A stretch of DNA of 64,000 bases from Promethearchaeota archaeon (GCA_019057865.1 JAHLWP010000001.1:128001-192000), one strand, 5' to 3'; positions 10,267 to 35,523 are shown, numbered from the stretch's first letter. Notes: generated by a model not told the origin, from the sequence alone. Translations and numbers: made by a program.

Positions 10267-10296
10267 TTCTGCAGTTATGGATAATTTCCAAAACCT
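10267..10296 (-). other. Predicted 30-nt BHB intron in the Fe-S gene remnant
   Basis: CUGU-[AU^A]-GGUUUUGGA(AAUUA)UCCAUAACU-GCAG-[AA^A]-GA. Same position and length as the intron at 13068-13097. Confidence 0.72.
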
Positions 10297-10349
10297 ATAC
10301 AGGAGAATATGGCTTGCCATTCTTTTTTTAAATGTTTCAATTCAGTCAT
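10267..10349 (-). pseudogene. Remnant (exon 1 plus intron) of a second HdrD/GlpC-type Fe-S gene
   Basis: ATG 10349 gives MTELKHLKKEWQAIFSCI, nearly identical to MSELKHLKKEWKAVMSC at 13150, and sits in the same position after the FAD gene. No recognisable exon 2. Confidence 0.8.
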
Positions 10350-10350
10350 T

Positions 10351-11868
10351 TTATTTTTCACCCCAAAAATTAAATTTTCCTCTACTTAATATCATTTTTG
10401 GATCTAAAGTTTTTTTATTTGATTTCATTACATTATAATACTCTTCTGAATATGCTCCGATATCAACCATAACACGAGACATATAATCTCCCATCATGTA
10501 CCATTGTACACCATGCTCAGTAACTCTTTTCAACAGAGATTTCCATAGTTTTATATTTATTTCATCGATAATTTTATGGGCTTCTCCATTATAGAAACTC
10601 CAGAAACTAGTAAACCCACAAGTAATTTCTACATTAGTTCCATCTATTAATAGAATTGGACCACTTCCTGCAATACATCTTATTTTAGTAATTTCAAAGA
10701 TTTTTTGCATATCTTCTTGATGCTCAAAATCCCATTGATCAATATCATCTAAGATACTAGGATATTGTATTATAGGACTAAAACATTCGGCTGTGAGAGG
10801 TTGTATAGTAGGAAAGATTCCCCATAAATTATGATAGAATTGCCAATGTCCTTGTTCAGTATAATGCCATTTAGCGATATTCCCATCTGATATTTCAGGT
10901 CCTAGTTCTTCACTTTTATTTTCCACCATAATCTTATCTAATTGCCTTATCTTTTCGTCTAGCTCTTTTTCAGAATTTGCTTCTATGGTATAAAAGATCA
11001 TACCTCTCTTTTTTTTTAGATCATCCCATAATGGCAAAAATTTTTCTTGCGTCCCAAATCTCACAAGCAGATCCATAATATACATTAAATCATAAACATC
11101 AATTCCTTTTTGTCTAATCTCACTCATCATCTGAGCAGAAATTTCAAGTGAGTTTCGAGGCATTAAAAATGTTTTATAACCAGCATATTCAGGTTTAGGA
11201 AAAACTTGCAGTGAAACTTTTGTTTTTACTCCAAAAATTCCATTATCACCACAAAAAAGTGCAGCTAAATCAGGACCATTTCCAAATCTATTAAATGGGA
11301 ATTTTGAATGTATATTTGCTTGAGATCCTGTTTCAATGATTTCACCAGTTGGCAAAACAACTTCCAATGAAACTAGTTGATTAGTACAGGCACCATACTT
11401 AGCACATCCACCACCACCTACTGAATGATGAGAAGGTCCTCCTCCTATTGATGATGTCAATCCAGATCCTGGACCCATACACCCTGTGTAAAGCCCAAAA
11501 TGACATAAATATTCATTTAGTTTACTTCAAGAGATACCAGCTTCCACAGTAACTATTAAATTATCTATATCCAAATTCAATACTTTATCCATACTTTTTA
11601 GATCTAAGACAATTCCAGTATCTCCAATAGGTTTACTCCCTCCAAACTCACAGTCTCCACCACCTCGAGGGATAACTGGTACATTCTTTTCATTGGCAAT
11701 TTTGAGAATATATGAAATTTCTTCTGTAGTTTTAGGACGTATAACAATATCAGGAACACCTTGAAGATTGGAAGTAACATTCCGGGAATAAGCGTGTCGA
11801 ACATATAAGTCATTAGATATCCTATTTTTGGACACTATTCTTTCTAATTTCTGGTACAATCCTGACAT
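10351..11868 (-). pseudogene. FAD-binding oxidoreductase copy 2, with in-frame TGA (11527-11529) at a Trp position
   Basis: ORFs 11527-11868 and 10351-11478 share one frame: EAGIS*SKLNEYLCHFGLYTGCM versus EAGISWGKLNEYLCRFGLYTGCM in copy 1. Span is 1518 nt, the same as copy 1. Confidence 0.82.
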
Positions 11869-11887
11869 TTTAAATCTCTAAAATAAT

Positions 11888-13150
11888 TTATAGTTTAGAT
11901 GCAATTAGGTCAATTATATCAATAACTTTAATTTTTTCTTTGATTTCTGGCTCCATTTCTTCATAAGCATTGCTTAGATTTCCGATGCAAAAAGGACAGC
12001 TAGTAGTTAAGATTTGTGCGCCTGATTCAACAGCTTCTTTTATCCTTTCTTGTGAGATTTTAAGAGCTAATTCAGAGAATTGACTCTTCATACCTCCCCC
12101 CGCTCCACAACACCAAGCATTATTTTTATTTCTTTTCATTTCGACTAATTCAATTCCAGGTATTTTAGAAAGAACTTCTCGAGGGATTTCATAAAGATTC
12201 ATATGACGTCCTAAATGGCAGGGATCATGATAAGTGACTTTAACTCTTTCCATCTCTTCTTTAAAAGATATTTTATTGTTATTGATTAATTCCACCAATA
12301 TTTCTGTTATGTGTTTCACTTCAAATGGTAATTCATAGCCTAGTAATTCAGGATAATCTTTTTTCCAAGTTCTATAACATCCTGCGCAAGCTGTAAATAA
12401 GGTTTTAGCACTTTTATTTTTGAATTCATCAATATTGTGCTTAATCATTTCAGTTATAGATTTTTCATCACCAATCCTTATAGCAATAGAACCACAGCAC
12501 CACTCATCTTTAGACATTGCAATTTCTATTCCTGCTGCTTTCAATATTTTCATCATGCTTTTTAGCGTTTCTACTTGTCTTAAGGGCATGGTACACCCTC
12601 CAAAAAACATTAAGTCTCCCTTTTCCTTAATCTCAGGAAATTCCTTTATCCAATCAAATTTTTTATCTTTATCTTCTCCATAAGGATTCTTCATATTATC
12701 ATCGTTCATATACTCGATTAGATCACCATGTCCATCCAGAGGAGCAAAACCAGCCTCAACTAGATCCTTTCTTAATGCTTCCCATACTTTTACATGATCG
12801 ATCCAATTGCTTGTGGGAAGAACAATATATGGATTCTGAGACATATGGCAAACCTCAGTACAATTCCCACATTCGCTGCATTGGTAAACCCATTCAGCAA
12901 GTTCTCTACTCAAAGGAATTTGACCTTCTAAAATGCTCTTGAGAACATTCATTCTTCCCCTTGCAAAATATATTTCAAAACCTTCCTCTTCCTTAGCTTC
13001 CAATACAGGACATGTTAAATATCTACCAACAACAGGTCGAATGGCATACCCACAATCTCCGCAGCCCAAATATAGATTCCAGGAGCTCTAGAACCTTATA
13101 CACGACATGACCGCTTTCCATTCTTTCTTTAAATGTTTCAATTCACTCAT
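11888..13150 (-). CDS. HdrD/GlpC-type (Fe-S)-binding oxidoreductase subunit, intron-containing (exons 13150-13098 and 13067-11888; 410 aa spliced)
   Basis: Spliced N-terminus MSELKHLKKEWKAVMSCMGCGDCGY restores CxxCxxC. Also CSECGNCTEVC, EWCCGS, YHDPCHLGR, CCGAGGG and SCPFC (CCG domains). Confidence 0.88.
13068..13097 (-). other. 30-nt bulge-helix-bulge mRNA intron containing an in-frame UAG
   Basis: GUC-GUGU-[AU^A]-AGGUUCUAG(AGCUC)CUGGAAUCU-AUAU-[UU^G]-GGC. Removal gives UGU AUG GGC UGC (C-M-G-C). Confidence 0.85.
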
Positions 13151-13151
13151 T

Positions 13152-14669
13152 TTATTTTTCACCCCAAAAATTAAATTTACCTCTACTTAAAATCATATTT
13201 GGGTCAACAGTTTTTTTGATTGATTTCATTAAATTATAAAATTCTTCTGAATAAGCTCCAATATCTACCATGAAGCGAGACAAAAAATCACCCATCATAT
13301 ACCATTGTACTCCATGTTTTATTACCCTTTCTAAGAGAGATTTCCATAATTTTATATTTATTTCTTTGATGATTTCATGGATTTCTTCATTATAATATCT
13401 CCAAAAGCTGACAAAACCAGTTGTTATCTCAACATTATTACCGTCTACTAGAGGAACGGGACCACTACCTGATATAGGACGAGTTTTCGTAATATCAAAT
13501 ATTTTTCGCATATCTGCTTCATTTTCTATATCCCATTGATCAACATCTTGCAAAATTTTGGGGAATGCACTAATTGGGCAAAAACATTCAGCTGATAAAG
13601 CTTGCATTGAAGGAAACATTCCCCATAGATTATGATACAATTGCCAATGTCCTTTTTCAACATAATGTCATTTAGCAATATTTCCATCAGATATTTCTGG
13701 ACCTAAATTTTCAGATTTTTTATTCAAAATCATATCATCTAATTTCTTAACATTTTCATTTAATTCAACTTCAGAATTTGCTTCTATAGTATAGAAAAAC
13801 ATTCCTCGCCTACGTTTTAAATGTTCCCATAACGGAAAGAATCCTTGGTCTGATCCTATAGCAACCACAACATCTGGAATAAACATCGCATCATAAACAT
13901 CAATTCCCTTTTGTCTAATTTCATTCATAATCTGTGCTGCTGTTACAGCAGATTTACGAGGCATTAAAAAAGTTTTATATTCTGCAAATTCCGGTTTAGG
14001 AAATACTTGTAAAGAAATTTTTGTTTTTACACCAAAGATTCCATTATCCCCACAAAAAAGACCTGCTAAATCAGGCCCATTTCCAAATCTATTGAATGGT
14101 AATTTCGAATATTTATTGGCCTGAGAACCGGTTTCTATTATTTCTCCTGTTGGTAAAACTACTTCCAGAGAAATTAATTGGTTAGTGCAAGCACCATATT
14201 TAGCACATCCTCCTCCACCAACAGAATGATGAGAAATACCCCCACCTACTGATGCACTCATCCCAGAACCAGGTCCCATACACCCTGTATAGAGTCCAAA
14301 ACGGCACAAATATTCATTTAGTTTTCCCCAAGAAATTCCTGCTTCAACTGTTGTTATGAGATTATCTTCATCTAAATTAATAATGTTATTCATTCTTTTC
14401 ATATCTAAAACTATACCCCCATCTCCAATAGGTTTGCTTCCACCAAATTCGCAAATACCAGCTCCACGAGGGATAACAGCTATATTCTCTTCATTGGCAA
14501 TTTTAAGGATTTCTGAGATTTCTTTTGCATCTATTGGTCTTATAATAATATCAGGTACTCCTTGTAAAACAAGATCAACATTTCTGGAATAAGCATGGCG
14601 CACATAAATATCATTTGAGAGAAACTCTTTTGATACTACTTTTTCTAACTTTTTGTAGACTTCTGACAT
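13152..14669 (-). pseudogene. FAD-binding oxidoreductase copy 1, with in-frame TGA (13668-13670) at a Trp position
   Basis: DGNIAK*HYVEKGHWQLYHNLWG versus DGNIAKWHY in both paralogs; otherwise full length (PRGAG, GPDL..F.GDNGIFGV, DPNMILSRG). Confidence 0.8.
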
Positions 14670-14893
14670 TTTTGTATTTCCTCAATTATTTTTAATTAAA
14701 ACAATTTATGATAGAAACGATAGATTACTTAAATATAATCCAAATTAAAATAAGTTGATTTTTTATGTTTGTTCATTTTCTGCATTTGGTTTTCAAGTTT
14801 AAAAACAAATAAAACATTAAAAAACTAAAAAAATTAATACTAAGTTAGGAAGTTAAGTCAAATATAAAACTGTAAAAATTAATTTAATAATAA

Positions 14894-15199
14894 TTGAAAA
14901 ATGTTGGTGAGTTTGAAATTTACTATAGAGGTTATATATTAATTCGATTAAAAACTATTGGAACCGAATGGAAAGTTGTTGAAAAACTAATTGGTTTAGA
15001 ATCAAGTGAACCAAATGAAGAATGGAAAATAACGTATGCTACGCCTGTATATGGTGGATGGGATGTAATTGTAGAATGCTCATTCAGTAAGCTTAAGGAT
15101 TTAGACAAAATAGTAACCTTCTGCAGGGTAGATAAGGATTTATCGCAGTGGATTGAGGAAACAACTACGCTCATGGGGTCCCGAAATGATCATCCTTAA
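14894..15199 (+). CDS. Lrp/AsnC ligand-binding (RAM) domain protein
   Basis: GYILIRL...VYGGWDVIVE...IEETTTLM pattern; start codon uncertain. Confidence 0.75.
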   Translation: MKNVGEFEIYYRGYILIRLKTIGTEWKVVEKLIGLESSEPNEEWKITYATPVYGGWDVIVECSFSKLKDLDKIVTFCRVDKDLSQWIEETTTLMGSRNDHP

Positions 15200-15252
15200 G
15201 ATTTTTCATTTAAATAAATTGGTTATAAACAAATAGTTGGATAAGAAAAACA

Positions 15253-15846
15253 TTGGATAAAATAAGGAAATATACTCTTATAATAATTATTTTTATCATA
15301 CTAATTATTCCAACGTTTTTAGGATATTATTGGGAATATTTTTTCATAAGAGAATTTGATGTGTATGTTGTTTTAATTTTAATTTTTGGCTTTATCATTT
15401 TCTTCATTATGGGTAAATTGATAGAAATTTATGTTTATAATGATAATAGAATTGAAGTGTTAAAAAAAAATGATATTATAAATGCCTTCATCTCAAAAAA
15501 GAATCGAATTGTTATATGGATTTTTTTTCCGATAATCATGATAATTGAAGAACTTATTTTCAGGTTCTACACCCTTACCTTTCTTGTTAACCAAATAGAG
15601 TTAAAAGCTTTAGTAGCTGTATTTATCTCAAGTTTGGTTTTTTCACTATTTCACATACATACTTGGTTTTCATATAGAAGTTTGAGGATATTGCTAGTAA
15701 ATCTTATATTTCCTTTTTTATTGGGATTATACAATGGCTATATCTTTTTAACAATAGGCATTATCCCCTGTTTTATAATCCATTACATAATAGTTCTAAA
15801 TTTATATTACAATCTCTATAAGAGATATTTCAAAAACGACACATAA
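15253..15846 (+). CDS. CPBP/CAAX-family intramembrane metalloprotease
   Basis: EELIFR, FSLFH and IIHY motifs; multiple TM segments. Confidence 0.85.
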   Translation: MDKIRKYTLIIIIFIILIIPTFLGYYWEYFFIREFDVYVVLILIFGFIIFFIMGKLIEIYVYNDNRIEVLKKNDIINAFISKKNRIVIWIFFPIIMIIEELIFRFYTLTFLVNQIELKALVAVFISSLVFSLFHIHTWFSYRSLRILLVNLIFPFLLGLYNGYIFLTIGIIPCFIIHYIIVLNLYYNLYKRYFKNDT

Positions 15847-15867
15847 AAAATTAATTAAAAAAAGTTA

Positions 15868-17601
15868 TTACTTCTTCCTTAATACCTTCTTATCCACTTT
15901 CCCAACAGATGTTAATGGCATCTCTTCAAGAATTTCGATCATTCTAGGAACTTTGTATTTTGCTAAATTATCTTGGGCGAACTTTAAAATATCCTCTTTA
16001 ATTTCTTCTGAAGATTCATATCCCTTTTTTAATAAAACATATAGTTTTACTATTTCAGAACCAGGACGATCAGGATCAGAAATTCCGACACATGAACAAA
16101 GCTCAATTGCAGGGTGTTTATTCATTTTATCATCGACTTCCACACTGAAAACTTTAAAACCACTAACATTTATCATATCTTTTGTGCGGTCGACGATAGT
16201 AATATACCCTTCCTCATCCATAATACCAACATCACCGGAGTAAAACCAACCCTTTTTGAGAGCATATTCAGTTTCTTCTGGTTTATTCCAATAACCCTTA
16301 AAGATCTGGGGACCTTTTATTACAATCTCACCCGGTTCACCAATAGGAACCTCTGTTTCCCGATCAACTACATCTACAATTTTAACTTCAGTTGATGAAA
16401 CTGGAATTCCAACGGTTCCAATCTTTTTAGTGCCTAGATAAGGGTTCATTGTAACTATCGGTGATGCTTCAGTCATTCCATAAACTTCTAATACTTTATC
16501 CTTTCCCACAACTTCTTCAAACTCATTTATACTTTCTGAAGGAAAAGGAGCTGCTCCCGAAATAAATATATCAATAGAACTAAAATCTAATTTTTTAAAT
16601 TTTCGATTACTTAAAAGTAATAAATAGAGTGTTGGAACGTTTACCATTAATCTAATTTTTCCTTGATAGTCTTTTGCTTTATTAGTCAAATATGTAGTAT
16701 CTCTTGGATTGGGAATAAGAATTTGTCCTGCGGCACTATGTACTGATGAGAGATTAAATGCCATTCCAGCAAGATGGAAAAAGGGAAATCCAGAAATATA
16801 AACCTCTTTGCCTGGATTTGCGCCTGGTTCCAACCAATGATAAATTTGTTTAATATTATATATTAAATTCTCATGAGTTAATATAGCCCCCTTTGGAGGA
16901 CCTGTAGTACCACCTGTATATTGTAGAAAAGCAATATCTTTTTTTGGGTCTATATCCACTTTCGGGGCTTTATCACTGGAGTAATTTTCTAATATCTCGT
17001 TATAAGTAAAGTATTTAATACCTTCCACAGGTATGACTTCACCATATGGCAATTTACCTATTTTTATTAACTGTTCTTTCATCTGTGGATCTAAATCTAA
17101 AACGTCCGCCACATTAGTAGTTATAACAGTTTTAACATTGGTCTCTCCTGATTGTAATGCATTTTGAACCTTTTCCTCGTAAAATGAATCAAGTGTAAAC
17201 AAAACCACTGCTCCACTATCTTTTAATTGATAGATAATCTCTGGTGTTTGCATCAGAAAATTCATACCTGTTGAAGTACAACCGGTATAAAAAGTAGCCC
17301 AAACAGCTACAAAATACTGGGGAGTATTAGGTAACATAATAGCTACTCTATCACCTTTTTGCACTCCCATTTCTATAAAAAAATTAGCTAAGCTGATAAT
17401 ATCTCTTTCTACTTCTTGGTATGTAGCACAATTCCCTTGAAAATCATAACAAAGACTATCAGGGAATTCCTCTACAGTCGTTTTCATCATTTCAGCTAAT
17501 GATATAACTTTAACATCTATTTCAGGCTTCACATGGTTAACATATGATTTTAACCATATTTTTTCTGAATATGGACTTCCGTCGATTTGCTTTTTAGTCA
17601 T
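15868..17601 (-). CDS. Long-chain fatty-acid--CoA ligase (AMP-binding)
   Basis: YTGGTTGPPKG, YGMTE, SGDVG, DRTKDMI, GKVDKK. Confidence 0.93.
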   Translation of the reverse strand: MTKKQIDGSPYSEKIWLKSYVNHVKPEIDVKVISLAEMMKTTVEEFPDSLCYDFQGNCATYQEVERDIISLANFFIEMGVQKGDRVAIMLPNTPQYFVAVWATFYTGCTSTGMNFLMQTPEIIYQLKDSGAVVLFTLDSFYEEKVQNALQSGETNVKTVITTNVADVLDLDPQMKEQLIKIGKLPYGEVIPVEGIKYFTYNEILENYSSDKAPKVDIDPKKDIAFLQYTGGTTGPPKGAILTHENLIYNIKQIYHWLEPGANPGKEVYISGFPFFHLAGMAFNLSSVHSAAGQILIPNPRDTTYLTNKAKDYQGKIRLMVNVPTLYLLLLSNRKFKKLDFSSIDIFISGAAPFPSESINEFEEVVGKDKVLEVYGMTEASPIVTMNPYLGTKKIGTVGIPVSSTEVKIVDVVDRETEVPIGEPGEIVIKGPQIFKGYWNKPEETEYALKKGWFYSGDVGIMDEEGYITIVDRTKDMINVSGFKVFSVEVDDKMNKHPAIELCSCVGISDPDRPGSEIVKLYVLLKKGYESSEEIKEDILKFAQDNLAKYKVPRMIEILEEMPLTSVGKVDKKVLRKK

Positions 17602-17769
17602 ATTATTATCACTTCAGGCAAATTTTTTGTAAAATATGATAAAATTTAGTAAATATCATTTATGATAATTTGATATTTAATATTATCCTTTAAATATCAT
17701 CTATTTGAGAATTGAATCTAAATATACGATAGAGTTGTCAAATTCAACAATTTTTCAAAGAGGAATTTT

Positions 17770-18639
17770 ATGAAAGTTTATTTTAGAAAACTAATACATG
17801 ATGATATTCCTGCTATAAGAGAAATATGTAAAGACATATGGGAAGGATATGATTATGTGCCGCATGTTATAGAAGAATGGTTAAATGATAAAGTTTCTTT
17901 AAATTTTGGTGTTTTTAAAAATGAAACCAAAGAAATGGTAGGATTTAGCCGCATAAAATTATATAATAATGAATTAGCATGGTTGGAAGGAGGAAGGGTT
18001 AAGATACCATATCAAAAGCAAGGTATTGGTAAAGCAATTACGAATTATAGTATTGATTATGCATATAAAGCAAATATAAAAGTTGCACAATATGCTACGT
18101 CCTCAAAAAATTTAGGATCAATTTCAATTGCTAAGTATTTTGGATTTAAAAACAAGAAGAGTATGAATGTTCTTGATGCAGAAAGAAATGATATTAGATT
18201 AAGGGGAGATTCATATCTTAAAGTTGAAAAAATATCTGCTAAAGAAGCTAGGAAACAATATAATAACTTTAATATTGGGCTTGGAGATGAAGTATGTATG
18301 GGGTGGTCATTTGTCCCATTAAACTACATTTCTGATGAGGATGGTGAATGGTATGTATATAATTCAGCTGCTATTCTTCAAAAAGTAAAATTTAAAAGAA
18401 TCCAGATTAAGGAAGGCCCTGGAGAATATGAAATTTGGTTGATAGTCTATGGAAAACCAAAAATAGCAGTTAGGTTGATTCAATATATCCTTAACGAAGA
18501 GTTAAATTCAATAAAGAGTAAATATTTTGAAATTTTTTGTCACCCTCATATTGCTAAAAAAGTTGAAAAGATGGGATTTTCATATTATGAGGGTGAGCCA
18601 TTTGGAGTTGTATTATTTGAAAAAATCTTAAGTGAATAG
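17770..18639 (+). CDS. GNAT-family N-acetyltransferase
   Basis: WLEGGRV..YQKQGIG acetyl-CoA motif; N..S...AKYFGF. Confidence 0.85.
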   Translation: MKVYFRKLIHDDIPAIREICKDIWEGYDYVPHVIEEWLNDKVSLNFGVFKNETKEMVGFSRIKLYNNELAWLEGGRVKIPYQKQGIGKAITNYSIDYAYKANIKVAQYATSSKNLGSISIAKYFGFKNKKSMNVLDAERNDIRLRGDSYLKVEKISAKEARKQYNNFNIGLGDEVCMGWSFVPLNYISDEDGEWYVYNSAAILQKVKFKRIQIKEGPGEYEIWLIVYGKPKIAVRLIQYILNEELNSIKSKYFEIFCHPHIAKKVEKMGFSYYEGEPFGVVLFEKILSE

Positions 18640-18653
18640 AGAAAGTAGAGTGT

Positions 18654-19029
18654 CTATTTTCTGCATCTTATGATTAAAAACCATGCTATTACACGTGTAG
18701 CTGCTAAACGTGGATAATTTTTGATGGTTTCATCATTGGCAAATGGTTCACTAAAATATTCTAAGGTGAAACCTGAATTTATTAAGGTATTTAACCAATA
18801 ACTTAAGGTACGTCTAAACCTTGGAACACGAAATTTTTTCATATTTTTTGTTAATTCTTTGGGAGCTGCACTAAAAATCCATTCTTCAAATTCTCCATCA
18901 AAATTTTTGAAATAATCCCGACATATTAAACCCGTTCTTCTACCTTTATCATCATATATCCATTCGAGCTAGTTTAGTCCAGTTTTCAGCATTTTCATCC
19001 CAGAATTTCCCTACGTCTTTATCATCCAT
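18654..19029 (-). pseudogene. Class I SAM-methyltransferase remnant with a large internal deletion
   Basis: N-terminus MDDKDVGKFWDENAENWTKLARM is joined out of frame to EWIYDDKG...RDYF...RRTLSYWLNTLINSGFTLEYFSEP, a typical MTase C-terminus. The SAM-binding core is absent. Confidence 0.7.
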
Positions 19030-19051
19030 TGATATTCTCCATTTTCATATT

Positions 19052-19933: not shown

Positions 19934-20128
19934 ATAATATTAATTTCCTCTAAAATCTTAGCTTTTATCAGTTGTTTTAATTAATTAAGAAAAAGTTAGA
20001 TTTAGAAATTAAAAATTCAATAGCATCTTTTTTATTATGATATTTTAAAAAGCTCAAATAATAGTAGGCGGGACTTATATGGGGAAAGATTTTAAAAGGA
20101 TTAAATGGTTCAAGTATAATTAGAAATC

Positions 20129-21472: not shown

Positions 21473-21560
21473 TAAGAAAAAATTAATACTTTAAAACGAC
21501 TGCATAAATACACGAAGAGAAAAACTCTTATATAATTAAAAAAAAGGAAAAAGAAAAAAA

Positions 21561-25067: not shown

Positions 25068-25068
25068 T

Positions 25069-26304: not shown

Positions 26305-26316
26305 AAAATAAATTCA

Positions 26317-27327: not shown

Positions 27328-27356
27328 TCAATTTAAGTCGTAAAAGCAAGCGAACG

Positions 27357-30300
27357 TTGAAAAATTTATTATTATTGAGCATTCTTGTTGTTGTTACTAG
27401 TATTTCTTTAGTTCTAGTGAATATTCGTTATATTTCATACATAGATGATGATGAGGTTCAATTCATTAAAGACAATGCTGTTTTTTTTACATGGACTCAT
27501 CAAAATGAGCAGGGTTTATTTATCGAACCTAATTTAGATTCAAATTACAGAGCAATTGATTCAATAAATTTTTCTTTTGCTAGTATATTTTCTTCCAATT
27601 TGATAAATCCAAATAATATTTCAAATATATACATAAAACTGTATAAACCTAATATATTTTTTGATTACATATTTGAAAAACAAAACATAGACGGGTCATA
27701 TTCAGATGTAGCTGGACTTGGTAATATGATTTCCACATATCACGCTATAAAAACTCTAGAGATTGCAAATAAATCTTATTTAACTCGTAAAATACAACAA
27801 GGGGAGACAGACAATATTATAAATTATTTAAATGTTTCATCGAAAGATAATGGAGAAGGATTCATGGCATTACCCTTTCTAAATGAATCTGATATAATTT
27901 CTACATCATGTGCTATTGATTTAGCAAATATGCTAAATGCTGATTTTATTATTGATAATGATAACATCTCAAAATTCATCAATTCAACTTGGCTTGCTGG
28001 TAGTTACAAATTAACAGATAGTGTTTTAAGTATAGCAACAGCAGAAACAACGTATTATGGAATCAATGCATTTTTAGGATTGAATATGACATATACTGCT
28101 ATTGACCAAACAGCTATATGGGGATACTTTAATTCACTCTATAACCTCATAGATGGAGGATTTGCAAACATTTTAGGTGGATTTTCCGATGTCCAATCGA
28201 CATATTATGCCCTCTCCTCATTAAAAACACTAGGACTACCAAAACCTACATTTTTTAACGAAACAAAGACTTTATATTATATACTTAATTGTACAAACTC
28301 AGATGGAGGTTTTGGCTTACGTCCAGAGGGTAATTATAATTCAGGCTTTAAATCTGGATGGGCTGCAATAAAAGCAATCAATATTCTCAAACAAGACAAT
28401 TTAACGAATATTTCTGGTATTAATGATGCAATTTTAAGATATTATGATTGGCTGCATTTTTTTCAAGGTAAAAATTCTTTATTTGGTCGCACTACAATTG
28501 AAGCTAATTATTTTGGAGTTTTAGCCCTTTATAGTTATAATCCTAAAATTTTTTATGAATTAATTAATGAAGAAATCATTAATGAGGATATACTAAATAA
28601 TATTATATTATTCGTTAATCAATGTTATAATCAATATAATGGAGGATTTGCATCTAATCCTGGGGAAAATGCGACTCTTTTTGCAACTTATTGCGGATTG
28701 AATATCTATAAAATGCTTTATCCTTTTACTAATGAATGGCTTGATACATCTAAAATTAGAAATATAAGAAGTTATTTAGTTAATCTCCAAAATCCTGATG
28801 GTGGTTTTAGTATAGGTGGAGATGTCGAAATAATTTTATCTATGTTTGGACCATTGTATAAAATTTTCTTGTATTTAATTAATCCAAATATATCAACCGT
28901 TGAAAGCACATATTGGGCTTTAATTTCACTAAATATACTTGGCGGATTAAATGATATCGATTATAATAATCTTACTCATTGGATGAGATCATGTCAAAAT
29001 CCTGATGGTGGATTTTCGCTATATGTTGGATTTTATAGTGATGTAATATCAACATACTATGGACTTGAAGTATTTACTGAATTATTACATTCCGAACCAA
29101 TGTCTAAAATATCCGCAATCGAATTTCTAAAAAATGCACAAACTCCTGATGGTTCTTTTTCAGTTCTACCTGCCCTAGAGAGTTATTTATCCTTCCCATC
29201 AACATTTTTAGTAACTTATATTGGAGCAAAAGCTCTTTATGATTATAGGTTTCAACCAGAAAATATTGAAAATACTTTAAATTGGTTTATTCAATGCATT
29301 AGTTTAAATACTGGAGGAATTGGAGATAATCCTGGATTTGGAGGAGATTTAAGAAATATAGCTTATGGTATTATTATTGTGGATGAATTACAGTATGACC
29401 AGAGTTTTGATTCTAAACCTTGGAGTCAATTATTAACATATATTTTAATAGCAGAAATTGCTGGAATTGGTTTATTCATTTTGTTAAAATTATATCAAAG
29501 ACTTTCAATACCGCAAAGGATAAAATTAACATTGGGAATTGGAGGAAAACTTAACGTATCTTATTTACAAAAGTTTCCAGCCATTAATTGTGAAAACTTA
29601 AGTATTTATGCAGGAGGAAAATTAATTGTTGATTCTGTTTCTATGAATGTAAAACATGGTAAAATATTAGGAATTCTAGGAGAGAGTGGTGCTGGTAAAT
29701 CTACGTTCGTTAAAGGTTTACTTGGTATGAGAAAAATTACAGGATTTTGTCAAATTTATGGAATGGATATGAATAAAAGATCGTCAAGAAGAATTAGACC
29801 TATATATGGTTATGTGCCACAAGATTTAGGAAAAATTTATCATAATTTTACAACTTTGGAGAATTTATTATATTTTGGAAATCGTTATGGTCTTTCAGAA
29901 AAAGAAATCATTAGTAAATCTAAGAGAATTTTGCGTAGCCTAGAAATAGAAGATAAGATGAATGAATTAGTCAAAAACCTTTCTGGTGGGCAAAAAAGAC
30001 GTGTTAGCATTGCAATTGGGCTAATACATTCACCAACGTTTCTTATATTAGATGAGCCTACATCAGGTTTAGACCCAGTAATTAGAGAGAACATATGGTT
30101 AGTTTTAACCAAAATCAATGAGCAATTCAAAACTACATTAGTGGTGATTACTCACTATCCTGAAGAATCCCGATTTTGTAATCTTGTTGCAATATTTGGT
30201 AGAAAACGTGGAATGATAGATTTTGGACAACCAAAAAACCTTTTAGCTAGTTTACCTGGAAAAGGTAGATCAATTGAAATTACTTTTAGGGAGTCAAAAG

Positions 30301-30530
30301 AGAATGTAATTGCTAGACTTGAACTGATTGAAGGTATAGAAAAAGTTTTAGAAAATAAAGCAAACATCAAGTTTTCAATATTTTCTAATCTAAATATAGA
30401 TAAACTGATTGAAAAAATTGAAGTAGAAATGGGTAAGGATTCAATTCAAGAATTAAAACAAAGGGATTCTAAAATGGAACAATATTTTCGTTATAAAGCA
30501 ATGGAGGTGCCTAAAGTTGAAGAACTCTAG
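27357..30530 (+). CDS. Prenyltransferase/squalene-oxidase-repeat ectodomain, TM helix and ABC ATPase fusion
   Basis: N-terminal TM; repeated QNxDGGF...STYYA motifs; TM near aa 690-712; C-terminal GESGAGKST, LSGGQ, LDEP, ITH. Confidence 0.85.
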   Translation: MKNLLLLSILVVVTSISLVLVNIRYISYIDDDEVQFIKDNAVFFTWTHQNEQGLFIEPNLDSNYRAIDSINFSFASIFSSNLINPNNISNIYIKLYKPNIFFDYIFEKQNIDGSYSDVAGLGNMISTYHAIKTLEIANKSYLTRKIQQGETDNIINYLNVSSKDNGEGFMALPFLNESDIISTSCAIDLANMLNADFIIDNDNISKFINSTWLAGSYKLTDSVLSIATAETTYYGINAFLGLNMTYTAIDQTAIWGYFNSLYNLIDGGFANILGGFSDVQSTYYALSSLKTLGLPKPTFFNETKTLYYILNCTNSDGGFGLRPEGNYNSGFKSGWAAIKAINILKQDNLTNISGINDAILRYYDWLHFFQGKNSLFGRTTIEANYFGVLALYSYNPKIFYELINEEIINEDILNNIILFVNQCYNQYNGGFASNPGENATLFATYCGLNIYKMLYPFTNEWLDTSKIRNIRSYLVNLQNPDGGFSIGGDVEIILSMFGPLYKIFLYLINPNISTVESTYWALISLNILGGLNDIDYNNLTHWMRSCQNPDGGFSLYVGFYSDVISTYYGLEVFTELLHSEPMSKISAIEFLKNAQTPDGSFSVLPALESYLSFPSTFLVTYIGAKALYDYRFQPENIENTLNWFIQCISLNTGGIGDNPGFGGDLRNIAYGIIIVDELQYDQSFDSKPWSQLLTYILIAEIAGIGLFILLKLYQRLSIPQRIKLTLGIGGKLNVSYLQKFPAINCENLSIYAGGKLIVDSVSMNVKHGKILGILGESGAGKSTFVKGLLGMRKITGFCQIYGMDMNKRSSRRIRPIYGYVPQDLGKIYHNFTTLENLLYFGNRYGLSEKEIISKSKRILRSLEIEDKMNELVKNLSGGQKRRVSIAIGLIHSPTFLILDEPTSGLDPVIRENIWLVLTKINEQFKTTLVVITHYPEESRFCNLVAIFGRKRGMIDFGQPKNLLASLPGKGRSIEITFRESKENVIARLELIEGIEKVLENKANIKFSIFSNLNIDKLIEKIEVEMGKDSIQELKQRDSKMEQYFRYKAMEVPKVEEL

Positions 30531-32223
30531 AAATGTTGAATTAGAGCGTCTAAAATTAAAAATCTTAGAAGCAATTAGATATTCGAAGCGCTTTTGGATG
30601 ACATATAGAGAAAATACGTTTGGAATTGCATCAATTCTAAATTTAATTTATAAAAAGTCCTTTATCGAAGTATTATTTTTTACAAACAAAGACGTTATGG
30701 AAAAAGGAGTCCCTTTATTAAAAATCTATACGCCAATAGAAGAAGAAATTGATTTTAATGAAATTATTGTAGAACCCGATTTTGATGAGGATGGTCTTGT
30801 CAGTCCTAGGAAAATTATTGAACGTATGAGGAAACTTATTAGAAAAGAATTTCAAAAGCGTTTAACATTATTAGATATAGAAGTGGAATTAATAGATAAA
30901 AAGTTCGAAAATGATCCAGTCGAGAATAATCCTTACTTTAGAGAGATTAGAATTTTTTTCCCATATTTTATAATAGGGTTAAAGGTAAATTTTGAAAAAT
31001 ACCCTCTCTTACCATCATTTTTCTTTTCGAAAACACTTTTAAAAATTATAAATGAAAGAGAATTTAATGAAGAAAATATTATTAAAAACTGGAATGACGA
31101 AAAGCCCCCTCACATTTATCAACTAATCGAGAAAGTGTGTGAAATTGTTACAGACCGTCTAAAATTGGATCATTTAAATGAAAATTCTCAACATTTAATT
31201 CTTAATGATGTATCTATTAAGAATGGAATAAAAAATGTCTCATTCAATATTCATAGGGGAAAATCAATAGGGATACTCTATGAGGAACAACAACTCTATG
31301 ATAAAGATCATAAATATGATTTATTTTATTTATTTTGGGCTATTTCGGGAAATTATTCTGATTTTTCTGGGACAATTGAGATTTTTGGAAATCAGATTCA
31401 ACAATTAAATGAAACAGATTTAGAAAAAATAGTAATTCTACCCCAAGCGTATGATTCAAAAATAAAAAACATGAAAATTAAGAAAGCAATCAAATATGAT
31501 ATTAATCTTAATGAAATCCTTAAAAGTAGAAAAACTACATTGAACACAATATTGAAAGATGCTGGTTTTGTACCAAAGATTGATGAGATAATGGAAGAGA
31601 TTTTTTTTGCTGCTTCAAAGAGAATTCTTCTTAAAAATATATATATTAAAAATGCTTTAGAAGTCACTGGATTATTACATAAGAAAAAAAAAAGAATTTC
31701 TAAATTAAATCAATTAGAATACCTCTTATTTTCGATTGCAAGGGCTTTACTGCAATTTCCTTCAATAATTATGTTCTTTATTCCTTTTGAAATATTAGAC
31801 CGATTAGAATATGATAAATTTAATAATTACATGAAAAAAATTAAAGAAAAGTTTCATGTGATTTTAATCTTTTATGCTCCTGAAGGAATAATATCCAATT
31901 GTGATCAAATCATAACTATTAGCAATTTGGAATCTAAAACAGGGACATTCAGCAATTTAATTGAAGAATTACCTCAATCAGGTGAAATAATTATAATTGA
32001 ATTAGATAATCCGGGTGAAGACTTAATAAAAAAGTTATACGAATTTGATGAAATAGCTAAAATCATAGAAGAAAGAAAAAATGAGAGATTTAAAATATTT
32101 TTAAAAGATCAGCCTGATCAAATGTTAATTCGATTAATAGATTTATTTAGTCAAAATCTTTTCAGTTTTAAAAGATATAAAGCATCTTTAGAAGATTATT
32201 CAGAATTTTTTGAAAGTACTTAA
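30517..32223 (+). CDS. Degenerate ABC ATPase with N-terminal UEV/RWD-like region
   Basis: NVSFNIHRGKSIGI and SIARALLQFPSII retain the ABC fold, but Walker A, signature and Walker B are lost. N-terminal FEKYPLLP...KNW...PPHIYQLIEK is E2/UEV-like (inference). Confidence 0.6.
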   Translation: MKNSRNVELERLKLKILEAIRYSKRFWMTYRENTFGIASILNLIYKKSFIEVLFFTNKDVMEKGVPLLKIYTPIEEEIDFNEIIVEPDFDEDGLVSPRKIIERMRKLIRKEFQKRLTLLDIEVELIDKKFENDPVENNPYFREIRIFFPYFIIGLKVNFEKYPLLPSFFFSKTLLKIINEREFNEENIIKNWNDEKPPHIYQLIEKVCEIVTDRLKLDHLNENSQHLILNDVSIKNGIKNVSFNIHRGKSIGILYEEQQLYDKDHKYDLFYLFWAISGNYSDFSGTIEIFGNQIQQLNETDLEKIVILPQAYDSKIKNMKIKKAIKYDINLNEILKSRKTTLNTILKDAGFVPKIDEIMEEIFFAASKRILLKNIYIKNALEVTGLLHKKKKRISKLNQLEYLLFSIARALLQFPSIIMFFIPFEILDRLEYDKFNNYMKKIKEKFHVILIFYAPEGIISNCDQIITISNLESKTGTFSNLIEELPQSGEIIIIELDNPGEDLIKKLYEFDEIAKIIEERKNERFKIFLKDQPDQMLIRLIDLFSQNLFSFKRYKASLEDYSEFFEST

Positions 32224-32253
32224 AAATATAATATTAAGAATTGTCAAAAAAAG

Positions 32254-33066
32254 TTGTATTATATGATAAAAAGTATATATTTCTTGGACGAGAATGGATT
32301 TTTGTTATATTCCAAAAATTTTATGAAAGAAAAATATGATGAAAATATCTTAATAGGATTTTTTTCATCAATCGCTAACTTTAGTAGAGAAGCTTTAGGA
32401 GGTTTAGTTAAAAATGTTGATCTCGGGGAAAATAATAAGCTTATTTTACTACCGAATTCAGAAGAAAGAATTCTCGTAGCTACTGTTGTAAGTACTAATG
32501 ACAATAACGATTTAGTTACATTAATTGTTAAAAATATAATGCAAGATTTCATTGATTCTTATTCACCTGATTATGATCTTGAAACAATTTACCCTGATGA
32601 TATGGAAAGAATAATTAACAATAATTTAAGAGGGAAAATTATGCCTTCTCCAAGGATAAAATTATTATTGTCATGGCTAATCGTAGGATTTTTATGCTAT
32701 TTTCTAATTCTCCTGAGCATAAACGTAACTTCTTTTATGTATACATCTTTTAATTTGAACCGATTCTTTACTCCAGAACAATTATTTACAAGATTTATGC
32801 CTATTTTAATATTATTGTCTACAATAAATATAATTATTTTATTTTTGCTCCCTAATTTAATTCTAGGGTTTTTGTCTCTAAATTGGAAAATTGCTACTTT
32901 AAACTCTTTCATATATCTAGGGATAACTATTACACTATATTTCTATTCAACAGAACCTAATTTCGCCTATATTATTGTAGGGCATTTACCATTGTCTTTA
33001 ATCTTCTCTCTGTTTTTCCTCTTTATTGGTGCAAGATATTCATCAAAAATGTTTTTAAAAAGATAA
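32254..33066 (+). CDS. Longin-like domain fused to four TM helices
   Basis: IKSIYFLDENGFLLYSKNF...LIGFFSSIANFSRE longin pattern; hydrophobic C-terminal half. Confidence 0.65.
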   Translation: MYYMIKSIYFLDENGFLLYSKNFMKEKYDENILIGFFSSIANFSREALGGLVKNVDLGENNKLILLPNSEERILVATVVSTNDNNDLVTLIVKNIMQDFIDSYSPDYDLETIYPDDMERIINNNLRGKIMPSPRIKLLLSWLIVGFLCYFLILLSINVTSFMYTSFNLNRFFTPEQLFTRFMPILILLSTINIIILFLLPNLILGFLSLNWKIATLNSFIYLGITITLYFYSTEPNFAYIIVGHLPLSLIFSLFFLFIGARYSSKMFLKR

Positions 33067-33196
33067 TTTTTAATATTTCTTTTTATGTAAAAGCTAACTG
33101 GTTTGCCAATTTTTTATTTAGTAATTTATAAGAATAGAGGAGGTTTAAATATAAGATTATAGATATGGTATTAATAGCAAGATTTTGTTTTAGAAT

Positions 33197-33784
33197 GTGA
33201 GAGTCCTTATGATTATCCCTAAAGTAACGAAGAAGATCCAAGTAATATGTCCAATCTGTAAATCTAAGGATATAGTTGGCATACCAGAATCAAAGATGAA
33301 AACAAAATCTCAATTAATAACAGTTTCAATTCATAAGGGGTTAATCTGCCCTCATCATTTTCAAATTTTTATTGATAAAGATTTTCATGTTCGCGGGTAT
33401 CAGAAAGTAGATCTTGAATTGGAACAAAATAATGTTAAGAACTTAAGAAATGGGGTAAAAGCGTTTATTCCGCATGAAGAGGACGACGAAGAATTGTTTG
33501 AAAATATTATTATGGAGGGCAATTCTTTAAAATACCGCCCTTTAAATTATGCCGATAATGAAAAAACAACCTGCAGAAAGAATGAAAATGTCCCAAGAAA
33601 AAAAGACATGACTTTAAAAGAAATTTATGAGGAATTTTGGGAATTTATTGATGAAGAAAATGAAGAATTTCGAGATTTCATTATTAATGATAAAAGAAGG
33701 AAAAAATTTCCCATGGATTGTGAATATATTGAAGTTTTTAACCATTTGAATTTAGAATCAAAAAATTCAATAGAGAATTTCTAA
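33197..33784 (+). CDS. Hypothetical zinc-binding protein
   Basis: CPICK...ICPHHFQIFIDKDFHVRGYQKVD. Confidence 0.6.
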   Translation: MRVLMIIPKVTKKIQVICPICKSKDIVGIPESKMKTKSQLITVSIHKGLICPHHFQIFIDKDFHVRGYQKVDLELEQNNVKNLRNGVKAFIPHEEDDEELFENIIMEGNSLKYRPLNYADNEKTTCRKNENVPRKKDMTLKEIYEEFWEFIDEENEEFRDFIINDKRRKKFPMDCEYIEVFNHLNLESKNSIENF

Positions 33785-33982
33785 CTAATTTCTGCTTTTT
33801 CTCTTCATTTACAATAATTTACAATAATGTAATGTTATGATTCGGAATTCTACAAAACTTCCATAAGAAAAAGTTATCTTTTGCTTGAAAAAGATATAAG
33901 AAAATTTAAAATTTAGTAGTTAATTTTCCAAGATATTATATTATATTAATAAAAAAATCAAAAAATATGAAGAAAGATTAAA

Positions 33983-35502
33983 ATGTCATATAAATTACCA
34001 GACGAGAAAGATTTAGAAGCTATGATAGGCATTGTGGGAAAAGAATATGCTACAAATAATAAAGCTATTACTGCGTCTTACCTGTCGAAATCAGTAATGG
34101 GTTTAGAAATCTATTATCCAAAATCGGATAATGACTAAAGAGCCAAATCCCTGATATCGTCGTTCGACCGAAATTTGTTGAAGAAATCCGTAAAATCTTA
34201 ATATATTGCTCTGCAGAAAAAATTGCAGTGAGTCCCGTTTCAGCAGGATTATCTGGTGGCTTTGCTTGCCCAACAATTAAGCCCGGTGGAGTACTTCTCG
34301 ATTTAGGAAGAATGAACAGGATTATTGAAATTGATACAGAGAATCGGTATGTCGTTGTCGAACCGGGGGTAACAATTGGTGAACTTTGGGCTTATATGCA
34401 TAAGAATACTCCAGATTGGGCGCCCCCTATACCAGATGGTGCTCCACCAGCCTCAACTGTTATGGGCGACGCTATTGATAGAGGTTTTTCTCTCTATACT
34501 TCAAGCGTTGGACCACAAGGAGATAATTTTATGTGCGGAGAAGTTGTATTTCCAAATGGTGATATTGTACGAACTGGCTCTTGGGCTCTTCCTTTTGCTA
34601 AACCTTTTTATAAATATGGGTTAGGACCTGATATTTGGTCAACTATTATGGGTAGTCAAGGAGCTTTAGGAGTGGTTACGAAAGTCGCAGTTAAGATTTT
34701 TCCACATCCTGAATTTAAGACAGTAGTTGTATGGGGTATGTCCAACCCTCATGATATGCAAGATTTAACGTTAGAAATTGGGAAACAAGAATTTGGAATT
34801 GCCCATAACACTGTTATGGTTCAAGGCGGAAATTATCATTTAGTCATGGCTCGATGGCCTAAAGATAAAGTACCCCATGATTATGAATTCTATAAAGAAC
34901 TAGGAATTAGTAAATGGTGGATGAATTGGGAGTGCTGGGCACAAACTCAAGAAGAGTTGGACTATGTAACTAATAGAATTAATAAAATGGCCGAAGATTT
35001 CAAGAAGAATAGAGCTAAAGATCCTGATGCATTAAAACCTCAGGAACTTCATCCGAAACAAATTGCAAGCAGGTTAAAAAAACCTAATAAAATTGCTATA
35101 CCCTATAGTTTCTGGGAAGCGGGATTTTTATTTATTACTTGGTACACTCCATGGAATGAATGTGCCCATTTTGCTGAAATGTATACAAAGGCAATGGAGA
35201 AATATGGATTCCCACCAGTTATGTGGATCGCGAGTATCGAACGCTGCCGACAAGCAATTTGTATGCCCATTATTTGTTTCGATTCGACTAACACCTCAGA
35301 ATTTGAAAGAGTTCAAGATATGAATAGAGAAACAACTGAATACGGGCTTAAACAAGGATGGTTGAATTATAGACCAGACCCATACATTCACGCTCCTCTT
35401 ACATATAGTCAAGCTGGAATGTACTGGAAATACTTAAGAAAGATAAAGAAGATGTTTGATCCTAATATGATAATGCATCCTGGGAGGCTTGCCCTTCCAT
35501 AA
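33983..35502 (+). CDS. FAD-binding oxidoreductase, intron-containing (exons 33983-34108 and 34141-35502; 495 aa spliced)
   Basis: Exon 1 MSYKLPDEKDLEAMIGIVGKEYAT...SVMGLE plus exon 2 SQIPDIVVRPKFVEEI...VEPGVT...GPD...GSQGALGVVTK...DPNMIMHPG. The ORF track shows only 34228-35502. Confidence 0.88.
34109..34140 (+). other. 32-nt canonical bulge-helix-bulge mRNA intron
   Basis: GGU-UUAG-[AA^A]-UC(U)AUUAUCC(AAAAUC)GGAUAAU-GA-CUAA-[AG^A]-GCC. Excision removes a UAA stop and the frameshift. Confidence 0.9.
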
Positions 35503-35523
35503 CTAAGTAAGGAGGTAAAAAAA

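What the first reader, a model, noticed from the sequence alone, without database searches (positions are those of the whole stretch)
10267..35502. Possible splicing-gated redox module: tRNA-type mRNA splicing in an Asgard archaeon
Both FAD-oxidoreductase / CCG-domain Fe-S operons in the window carry a 5'-proximal (53 and 126 nt from the ATG), stop-containing BHB intron. It lies in the Fe-S subunit in one operon and the flavoprotein in the other, at unrelated sites with unrelated sequences. I saw none by eye in the housekeeping genes. Sizes (30, 30, 32 nt) match the tRNA introns here (29, 30 nt). Inference: independent intron gain in one pathway may place it under EndA/RtcB post-transcriptional control, loosely analogous to eukaryotic non-spliceosomal HAC1/XBP1 splicing. 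Excised introns could persist as small circles. Many Asgard 'pseudogenes' may be intron-containing genes.
Basis: inference. Interest (0 to 1): 0.9.

Follow-up and report, generated by a model that had tools for sequence, protein, structure and literature searches.

The report
tRNA-type mini-introns in Asgard redox genes
Two enzyme genes of this uncultured Asgard archaeon are each broken by a roughly 30-base hairpin insert of the kind normally cut out of tRNAs. Comparison with relatives indicates the inserts are spliced out of the mRNA, but they belong to a genome-wide set of such introns and are not a switch specific to this redox pathway.

Summary
The three inserts exist exactly as described.
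- 13068-13097 (-), 30 nt, in the CCG Fe-S gene.
- 34109-34140 (+), 32 nt, in the second operon's flavoprotein gene.
- 10267-10296 (-), 30 nt, which lies in a truncated duplicate of the Fe-S gene start, not in a working gene.

Each has bulge-helix-bulge geometry. Cutting at the predicted sites gives what intronless orthologs encode (SC-M-GCGDCG; GLE-SQIPDIV; 495 = 42 + 453 residues).

Orthologs in other genomes carry inserts at the same sites. In these:
- the helices covary (93.8% of cells paired, 9 of 16 pairs changed on both sides);
- the reading frames are intact, with dN/dS about 0.07-0.12.

The genome encodes a two-subunit EndA and one RtcB. No RNA run holds the locus, so splicing is inferred, not shown.

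The pathway-gating idea is not supported.
- I verified similar inserts in an EF-2-family GTPase, LeuRS pieces, dnaG, thiolases, an acyl-CoA dehydrogenase, an epimerase and small GTPases.
- Relatives at 94-96% protein identity lack both introns.
- Both introns sit in short mosaic tracts that match more distant intron-bearing alleles, which suggests spread by recombination.
- No tRNA lies in this window.

This scan has noted such mRNA introns before, in this genome and in other Asgard genomes.

The parts
13098..13150 (-). Exon 1 (53 nt) of the CCG/Fer4_8 Fe-S subunit gene. It encodes MSELKHLKKEWKAVMSC plus two bases of the junction codon.
   Evidence: It matches the N-termini of intronless orthologs P0121 and P0125, and holds the first Cys of CxxCxxC.
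13068..13097 (-). Intron 1, 30 nt, with an in-frame TAG. Central helix GUGU/AUAU, bulges AUA and UUG, outer helix GUC/GGC, 9-bp inner stem with a 5-nt loop.
   Evidence: Relatives carry an insert at the same site, the helices covary, and intronless alleles lack exactly this stretch.
11888..13067 (-). Exon 2 of the Fe-S subunit gene (two CCG domains, rest of Fer4_8). The spliced product is 410 aa.
   Evidence: dN/dS is 0.07-0.12 against other intron-bearing orthologs.
13152..14669 (-). Flavoprotein paralog A (FAD_binding_4 / FAD-oxidase_C), interrupted by an in-frame TGA at 13668-13670 where relatives have TGG.
10351..11868 (-). Flavoprotein paralog B, interrupted by an in-frame TGA at 11527-11529 where paralog A has Trp.
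10267..10349 (-). Truncated duplicate of the Fe-S gene start. Exon 1B is 10297-10349 and a 30-nt BHB insert is 10267-10296 (central helix CUGU/GCAG). No exon 2 follows.
33983..34108 (+). Exon 1 (126 nt, 42 codons) of the operon-2 flavoprotein gene.
   Evidence: It is intact in all five intron-bearing orthologs.
34109..34140 (+). Intron 2, 32 nt, holding a TAA and shifting the frame. Central helix UUAG/CUAA, bulges AAA and AGA, outer helix GGU/GCC, inner hairpin.
34141..35502 (+). Exon 2 of the operon-2 flavoprotein gene (453 codons). FAD_binding_4 starts at its residue 4.
35524..36927 (+). Operon-2 CCG/Fer4_8 Fe-S subunit gene, uninterrupted.

Best explanation
The 30-nt and 32-nt inserts are genuine archaeal bulge-helix-bulge mini-introns inside protein-coding transcripts.

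How it most likely works:
1. After transcription, the insert and four exon bases fold into the BHB.
2. The genome's two-subunit (alpha-beta)2 splicing endonuclease cuts after the second base of each bulge.
3. RtcB joins the exons.
4. Only then can the full Fe-S subunit (410 aa) and the flavoprotein (495 aa) be translated.

Steps 1-4 are inferred from sequence comparison and from established knowledge of EndA/RtcB. None is shown by RNA data.

The introns belong to a genome-wide population of about 30-nt BHB introns in tRNA, rRNA and many unrelated mRNAs of this lineage. They are most simply read as constitutively removed passengers. They are polymorphic between close species, and they appear to move between alleles together with short flanking tracts by homologous recombination. 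They do not form a control device specific to the FAD/CCG redox module.
For: 1. Exact junctions.
- Intronless orthologs read ...SVMGLE-SQIPDIV... and are 495 aa, which equals 42 + 453.
- The DNA of syntenic L001 lacks exactly 32 nt.
- Intronless Fe-S orthologs read SC-M-GCGDCG. This includes the junction codon AT|G that the BHB cut sites predict.

2. Same-site inserts in other genomes.
- Intron 1 is present in L006, L007, L027, L028, L030 and L036.
- Intron 2 is present in three species of the same genus. L019 has an unrelated 36-nt insert at the same site, in which the exon codon TTA>CTA covaries with the intron partner.

3. Covariation.
- 93.8% of cells are paired, and the central helix is 100% paired.
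- 9 of 16 pairs have changes on both sides.
- 0 of 500 shuffles reach these values.
- With the partner slid by 1-3 columns, only 34-51% of cells pair.

4. The interrupted genes are under purifying selection.
- Exon 2 is open for 392-394 codons, with dN/dS 0.07-0.12 at dS 0.9 to over 1.5.
- Exon 1 is intact in every intron-bearing flavoprotein ortholog.

5. The intron itself is constrained. It shows 1-3 differences in 32 nt, where third codon positions are only 58% identical.

6. The machinery is present.
- There are two EndA homologs. One is most like the catalytic subunit of the A. pernix heterotetramer (E 3e-35) and aligns across the crenarchaeal loop region.
- The other has Ser where M. jannaschii EndA has the catalytic His.
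- There is one RtcB.
- Asgard EndA is reported as (alpha-beta)2 with the L1 loop that gives broad specificity (PMC5829648).

7. The introns are not pathway-specific. Inserts were verified in an EF-G/EF-2-family GTPase, thiolase-like genes, LeuRS pieces, an acyl-CoA dehydrogenase, an epimerase (the Pfam profile continues across the junction), two small GTPases and dnaG.

8. Mosaic tracts lie around both introns (Fisher p 1.8e-4 and 9.5e-6).

9. The intron-bearing sequence, with 250 nt of flank, stands in a single contig of the source run at full depth.
Against: - There is no RNA evidence. No listed sequencing run holds this stretch as RNA.
- The minimum-free-energy folds do not draw the 4-bp central helix by themselves. 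The z-score of the intron 1 region is only -1.07.
- Intron 2's inner helix abuts the bulge with only 2 bp before a 1-nt offset.
- Both flavoprotein genes of operon 1 carry nonsense TGA codons, so that operon may be decaying in this population.
- The covariation set has only six related sequences.
- The direction of the recombination events (import versus replacement in relatives) is inferred from identity profiles, not proven.
- Constitutive splicing is an assumption.
Confidence: 0.75

Rival explanations
1. The introns were gained independently in one pathway and make translation of the FAD/CCG oxidoreductases depend on regulated EndA/RtcB splicing, like HAC1/XBP1.
For: - Two working genes and one remnant of this enzyme type carry introns within 25 kb.
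- All three are 5'-proximal, so the unspliced mRNA would give only peptides of about 19 and 51 residues.
- Intron 2 is far more conserved than synonymous sites.
- Earlier notes report further introns inside CxxC motifs of other Fe-S genes (unchecked).
Against: - Similar introns occur in at least nine unrelated genes of this genome, including dnaG, an EF-2-family GTPase and LeuRS pieces.
- Sister species at 94-96% protein identity lack the introns.
- All but two of the roughly 25 CCG genes here give open matches of the expected size. Of those two, the one I examined is a nonsense codon without a BHB.
- Intron positions elsewhere are also mid-gene and 3'-proximal.
- No sensor component is evident.
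- The gains look like recombinational import.
- No RNA data exist.
Confidence: 0.07
2. The inserts are inactivating insertions in pseudogenes. Nothing is spliced.
For: - Operon 1 has two nonsense-interrupted flavoprotein genes and a truncated gene remnant.
- Another CCG gene has an in-frame TAA without a BHB.
Against: - Intron-bearing orthologs in at least seven genomes keep 392-394 open codons, with dN/dS 0.07-0.12 at saturated dS.
- Exon 1 is conserved.
- The BHB covaries.
- Operon 2 is otherwise intact.
Confidence: 0.05
3. The genes are expressed without splicing, by starting translation downstream of the insert or by bypassing it.
For: - A TTG overlaps the 3' end of intron 1.
- Some orthologs have an ATG inside the intron's 3' end, and gene callers use it (MQK-GCGDCG starts).
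Against: - Other orthologs have CTG or TCG at that place.
- Exon 1 is conserved at the protein level and holds the first Cys of CxxCxxC.
- For intron 2, the first downstream start (GTG at 34228) would delete the first 30 or so residues of FAD_binding_4.
Confidence: 0.04
4. The inserts are an assembly or binning artefact.
For: The source is a metagenome-assembled genome with 87 contigs and 5% contamination.
Against: - The same inserts are seen in independent assemblies from other studies.
- A contig of the source run covers the intron plus flanks with no differences, at a depth like its neighbours.
Confidence: 0.01

Closest known systems
BHB intron in the cbf5 pre-mRNA of Crenarchaeota (Watanabe 2002; Yoshinari 2006; Yokobori 2009, PMC2738675)
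   Same: - A short BHB intron inside a protein-coding gene.
- Removal attributed to a hetero-oligomeric splicing endonuclease.
- Patchy gain and loss among related species.
   Different: - Different host genes (a CCG Fe-S subunit and an FAD-linked oxidase) and a different phylum (Asgard).
- Many genes per genome rather than one.
- Here splicing is inferred from comparison, whereas cbf5 splicing was shown experimentally.
- Here there is evidence for transfer with flanking recombinant tracts.
Non-canonical BHB introns of Asgard tRNA genes (bioRxiv 10.64898/2026.10.13.758758; Marck and Grosjean 2003 as cited there)
   Same: - The same motif and the same presumed enzymes.
- The same size class: about ten tRNA genes of this genome are about 30 nt too long.
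- Repeated gains and presence/absence variation.
   Different: - The host is an mRNA, so no tRNA body helps folding or recognition.
- The outer exon-exon helix is short: 3 bp here, and 0-1 bp in several other genes of this genome.
HAC1/XBP1 unconventional cytoplasmic splicing (IRE1 cuts, tRNA ligase or RtcB joins)
   Same: - Spliceosome-independent removal of a short intron from an mRNA.
- RtcB-type ligation in metazoans.
- Translation of the full product requires splicing.
   Different: - The nuclease there is a stress sensor (IRE1), not EndA.
- That event is restricted to one regulator mRNA and is condition-dependent.
- Here there is no sensor and no restriction to one pathway, and regulation is untested.

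Membership tests
Archaeal BHB (tRNA-type, EndA-cleaved) intron | [quoted passage not shown] | tested here: met
   (strict scan) passes both introns. One search finds the central helix 4/4 paired in six of the seven orthologs scored (L022, 59 nt, gives 2/4), and one search shows the same for the window. In one search the central helix is 100% paired in six sequences.
Archaeal BHB (tRNA-type, EndA-cleaved) intron | Flanking helices: outer (exon-exon) and inner (intron) | tested here: met
   The outer helix is 3 bp in both. The inner helix is 9 bp in intron 1, and 2 bp plus an offset 8-bp hairpin in intron 2. Covariation was counted for intron 1 only: 7 of 9 inner-stem pairs change on both sides.
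Archaeal BHB (tRNA-type, EndA-cleaved) intron | Excision at the predicted bonds restores the functional sequence | tested here: met
   The junction residues and product lengths equal those of intronless orthologs.
Archaeal BHB (tRNA-type, EndA-cleaved) intron | The genome encodes a splicing endonuclease able to cut relaxed or non-tRNA BHBs, and an RtcB ligase | tested here: met
   There is a catalytic alpha-like subunit, a beta-like subunit lacking the catalytic His, and one RtcB. The substrate range is taken from the literature (PMC5829648) and was not tested.
Archaeal BHB (tRNA-type, EndA-cleaved) intron | Spliced RNA and an excised (circular) intron are observed | not testable with these tools
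   No listed run holds the stretch as RNA. Only DNA contigs could be laid.
Regulated unconventional mRNA splicing (HAC1/XBP1-like gate) | The splicing event is restricted to the mRNA(s) of one pathway or regulator | tested here: not met
   BHB-type inserts are present in at least nine unrelated genes of the same genome.
Regulated unconventional mRNA splicing (HAC1/XBP1-like gate) | The intron is conserved wherever the pathway is present | tested here: not met
   Intron 1 is absent from 7 of 12 species-level Asgard orthologs and from L002 and L003. Intron 2 is absent from 24 of the 29 orthologs examined (counting L001, L019 and the window).
Regulated unconventional mRNA splicing (HAC1/XBP1-like gate) | The spliced fraction depends on conditions, and a dedicated sensor exists | not testable with these tools
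   There is no RNA data and no culture.

The most novel reading that the evidence does not exclude
The roughly 30-nt BHB mini-introns of this Asgard lineage may be an actively spreading population. On this reading they sit in tRNA, rRNA and about 1% of mRNAs, and they move between alleles and species with about 100-150 nt of flanking exon by short-patch recombination. The same exon site can be occupied by unrelated introns (32 nt versus 36 nt at the GLE|SQ site). That would be a living example of intron gain and turnover in protein genes of the closest prokaryotic relatives of eukaryotes. Their frequent 5'-proximal position could in addition tie translation of some mRNAs to EndA/RtcB activity.
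Probability: 0.3. Interest if true: 0.85.

Novelty: new member of a known kind. Interest (0 to 1): 0.6.

Why it matters
In the papers I could search, protein-gene introns removed by the tRNA-splicing enzymes are reported in archaea only for cbf5.

Here two metabolic genes need such splicing. The comparative evidence is strong: exact junctions, covariation, purifying selection and intron polymorphism. The same genome holds many more examples.

- For annotation, many Asgard 'truncated' or 'split' genes are probably intron-bearing genes. Several database proteins of this family start artificially at MGCGDCG or MQKGCGDCG.
- For evolution, the mosaic tracts give a concrete and testable route for how such introns spread.
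- The attractive idea of a splicing-gated redox module should not be carried forward without RNA data.

Tried and rejected
- **Genome-wide motif scans.** Scans for the BHB motif combined with an ORF-bridging test gave the same counts for real and decoy bulge geometries. This approach has no power, and I draw no count from it.
- **Motif-free paralog census.** I ran tblastn of 3652 ORFs against the genome. It gave 77 events, many of them gene boundaries, and only a modest excess of the real geometry (11 versus 2-8 events with 12 or more pairs). I used it only to pick clean cases, which I then checked one by one.
- **TGA recoding rejected.** TGA ends 13% of long ORFs, and single in-frame stops follow the general stop-codon usage.
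- **RNA evidence.** No RNA holder is listed for window 10100-14800.
- **tRNAs in the window.** None were found by four searches.
- **Second interrupted CCG gene.** The break at C3:104965 is a plain in-frame TAA without a BHB.
- **L022's 59-nt insert.** Its ends do not form a 4-bp central helix (2 of 4 pairs). I left it unexplained.
- **Enrichment in the FAD/CCG family.** This could not be tested fairly, because the census sees only genes with paralogs.


Full report
**What is in the window**

On the minus strand, 14669-10243 holds a tandem array.
- Flavoprotein A (13152-14669; FAD_binding_4 and FAD-oxidase_C).
- A CCG/Fer4_8 Fe-S subunit gene (11888-13150).
- Flavoprotein B (10351-11868).
- A truncated second copy of the Fe-S gene start (10267-10349).

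On the plus strand, 33983-36927 holds a second flavoprotein gene and an uninterrupted CCG/Fer4_8 gene. These are GlcD/GlcF-like or D-lactate dehydrogenase/HdrD-like pairs, judged from their Pfam families.

**The three inserts**

- *Fe-S gene.* It starts at ATG 13150. After 53 nt comes a 30-nt stretch (13097..13068) with an in-frame TAG. Removing it gives C-M-G-C-G-D-C, a CxxCxxC motif.
- *Operon-2 flavoprotein.* It starts at ATG 33983. After 126 nt comes a 32-nt stretch (34109-34140) with a TAA. The rest of the protein continues in another frame, which is closed upstream by a TGA inside the insert.
- *Remnant.* A third 30-nt stretch (10296..10267) follows a diverged copy of the same 53-nt exon. 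Downstream of it the similarity to the Fe-S gene ends. This is a gene remnant, not a third working intron.

My strict scanner requires a 4-bp central helix, 3-nt bulges and cuts after the second bulge base. It passes intron 1 (outer helix 3 bp, inner helix 9 bp) and intron 2 (outer 3 bp, inner 2 bp followed by an offset 8-bp hairpin) at exactly these coordinates.

**Is it more than chance?**

The motif alone is not more than chance.
- A loose version occurs 3787 times in the window.
- Genome-wide, motif plus ORF-bridging gives equal counts for real and decoy geometries.

What is not chance is the coincidence with boundaries fixed independently by homology.
- Close orthologs of the flavoprotein are 495 aa, which equals 42 + 453. 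They read ...SVMGLE-SQIPDIV... across the junction.
- The syntenic contig L001 lacks exactly 32 nt.
- Intronless orthologs of the Fe-S protein are 410-412 aa and read SC-M-GCGDCG. The junction codon Met is the AT|G that the BHB cut sites predict.
- With a pairing chance of about 0.4 per position in this AT-rich DNA, 9 or 16 consecutive pairs at one fixed pair of sites is expected at about 3e-4 or 4e-7. This is my own estimate.

**Conservation of intron 1**

Inserts lie at the identical site in L006, L007, L027, L030 (30 nt), L028 (31 nt) and L036 (29 nt). L022 has an odd 59-nt form. Nine relatives lack the insert.

On six ungapped sequences:
- 93.8% of cells pair.
- The central helix pairs in all six (CG, GU, UA, UG at one position).
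- 9 of 16 pairs change on both sides.
- No shuffle of 500 reaches these values.
- Sliding the partner by 1-3 columns drops pairing to 34-51%.

**Conservation of intron 2**

It is present in three other species of the same genus, with only 1-3 differences in 32 nt. Their coding sequences are 80% identical, and only 58% at third codon positions.

L019 has an unrelated 36-nt insert at the same site. Its central helix is CUAG/CUAG. The exon codon change TTA>CTA is matched by the intron partner.

**The interrupted genes are alive**

- Exon 2 of the Fe-S gene is open for 392-394 codons in every intron-bearing ortholog. dN/dS is 0.07-0.12 while synonymous sites are near saturation. Intronless pairs give the same ratio.
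- Exon 1 of the flavoprotein is an intact 42-codon ORF in all five intron-bearing orthologs.
- Reading from an internal start is unlikely. The start-like codon at the 3' end of intron 1 is TTG, ATG, CTG or TCG in different genomes.
- Exon 1 carries the first cluster cysteine.
- The first start after intron 2 would delete the beginning of the FAD-binding domain.

**Machinery**

- The genome has two EndA homologs.
  - One is most like the catalytic subunit of the Aeropyrum pernix heterotetramer (E 3e-35). The alignment runs through the crenarchaeal-specific loop region and the Tyr/His/Lys region.
  - The other has Ser where M. jannaschii EndA has the catalytic His, so it looks like a structural subunit.
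- There is one RtcB.
- This fits the published statement that Asgard archaea have (alpha-beta)2 EndA with the L1 loop associated with broad substrate range (PMC5829648).

**Not pathway-specific**

A motif-free census used tblastn of all long ORFs against the genome, keeping short stop-bearing or frame-shifting inserts relative to paralogs. Case-by-case checks followed. They show BHB-type inserts, mostly 30 nt, in:
- an EF-G/EF-2-family GTPase (C82:40874-40903);
- two thiolase-like genes (C7:117703-117732 and 63861-63890);
- leucyl-tRNA synthetase pieces (C49, three breaks);
- an acyl-CoA dehydrogenase (C13:2735-2764);
- an NAD-dependent epimerase, where the Pfam profile runs 1-124 in exon 1 and 135-240 in exon 2 (C75:2669-2702);
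- two small GTPases (C28, C48);
- dnaG (C79:33012-33051, central helix GGCC/GGCU).

Several of these follow a 1+9+5+9+4+2 layout and have almost no outer exon helix.

The genome has about 25 CCG-domain genes. All but two give open matches of the expected size, though I did not check each N-terminus. Of those two, the one I examined (C3) is a plain nonsense codon.

Earlier notes of this scan list many more such introns, in this genome and in other Asgard genomes, some with RNA support. I treat these as leads only.

**How the introns got here**

In the flavoprotein gene tree, the intron label needs at least three changes.

Along the gene, the window's sequence is 95-98% identical to its closest, intronless relative (L039). 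The exception is about 150 nt around the intron, where identity falls to 75-87%. Over the same tract, identity to the distant intron-bearing L054 and L049 rises from about 80% to 90-98%.

Informative sites confirm the mosaic.
- Intron 2: 13 versus 9 in the tract, against 61 versus 236 elsewhere (p 1.8e-4).
- Intron 1: 9 versus 5, against 20 versus 168 (p 9.5e-6).

A contig of the source run spans the intron 1 tract and 250 nt beyond it without any difference, at normal depth, so the mosaic is not an assembly chimera.

The simplest reading is that both introns came in with short flanking tracts, by homologous recombination with intron-bearing alleles. That is the opposite of independent de novo gain selected in one pathway.

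**State of operon 1**

- Both flavoprotein genes carry an in-frame TGA where the paralog and the relatives have Trp.
- TGA is a normal stop codon in this genome.
- The TGA in paralog A (13668-13670) is TGG in three other sediment data sets, but TGA at full depth in the source run.
- A contig of an independent 2015 run shows no difference at the TGA of paralog B.
- Operon 1 may therefore be partly decaying in this population. This weakens any argument that its intron serves regulation here.

**Verdict**

The tRNA remark does not hold for this window.

'tRNA-type mRNA splicing in an Asgard archaeon' is strongly supported by comparative evidence, but is not shown by RNA.

'Splicing-gated redox module' is not supported.

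In the papers I could search, such splicing of a coding sequence is reported only for crenarchaeal cbf5. These are therefore new members of a known kind, within what appears to be an unpublished, lineage-wide phenomenon that this scan has already met repeatedly.

Noticed in passing
window 13668-13670 (-) and 11527-11529 (-): Both operon-1 flavoprotein paralogs have an in-frame TGA at a Trp position. The one in paralog A is TGG in three other sediment data sets but TGA at full depth in the source run. A contig of an independent 2015 run (X3) shows no difference at the one in paralog B. TGA is a normal stop in this genome.
   Followed up: partly
window 10246-10296 and 13068 (tables 5 and 5c): A contig of run X3 joins Fe-S exon 2 (at 13068) through 9 other bases to 10246. 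That is, it joins to the B-type exon 1 and intron with about 30 extra bases. This suggests an intact second operon with a roughly 60-nt insert in that population, similar in length to the 59-nt insert of L022.
   Followed up: no
L022:941-999: A 59-nt insert lies at the intron 1 site. Its outer ends give only 2 of 4 central-helix pairs. Its first 29 nt look like a complete BHB unit, so it may be a composite or nested intron, or a degenerate one.
   Followed up: partly
G000:C3:104965 (-): Another CCG-domain gene is split by a single in-frame TAA (E*KK) with no BHB around it. It is probably a nonsense mutation.
   Followed up: partly
window 33197-33784 (+): A 195-aa ORF without any Pfam match lies between the 270-aa gene and the flavoprotein gene. 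It is absent from the otherwise syntenic contig L001.
   Followed up: no
G000 whole genome: Only 28 tRNA matches reach the Rfam cut-off, and ARAGORN finds 18, in a genome rated 99.7% complete. About ten of them are about 30 nt too long. Many tRNA genes are probably too interrupted to be detected.
   Followed up: no
G000:C82:40904-41098 (-) (L011): Exon 1 of the EF-2-family gene has its first start codon only 15 codons before the intron. Exon 2 begins at GTP_EFTU profile position 49. The G1 motif part may therefore lie in a further upstream exon behind another intron.
   Followed up: no
database proteins P0126, P0134, P0136, P0137 and others: Many public gene calls for this Fe-S family begin at MGCGDCG or MQKGCGDCG / LQKGCGDCG. 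They start inside or right after the intron and so miss exon 1. This is a systematic annotation error caused by these introns.
   Followed up: partly
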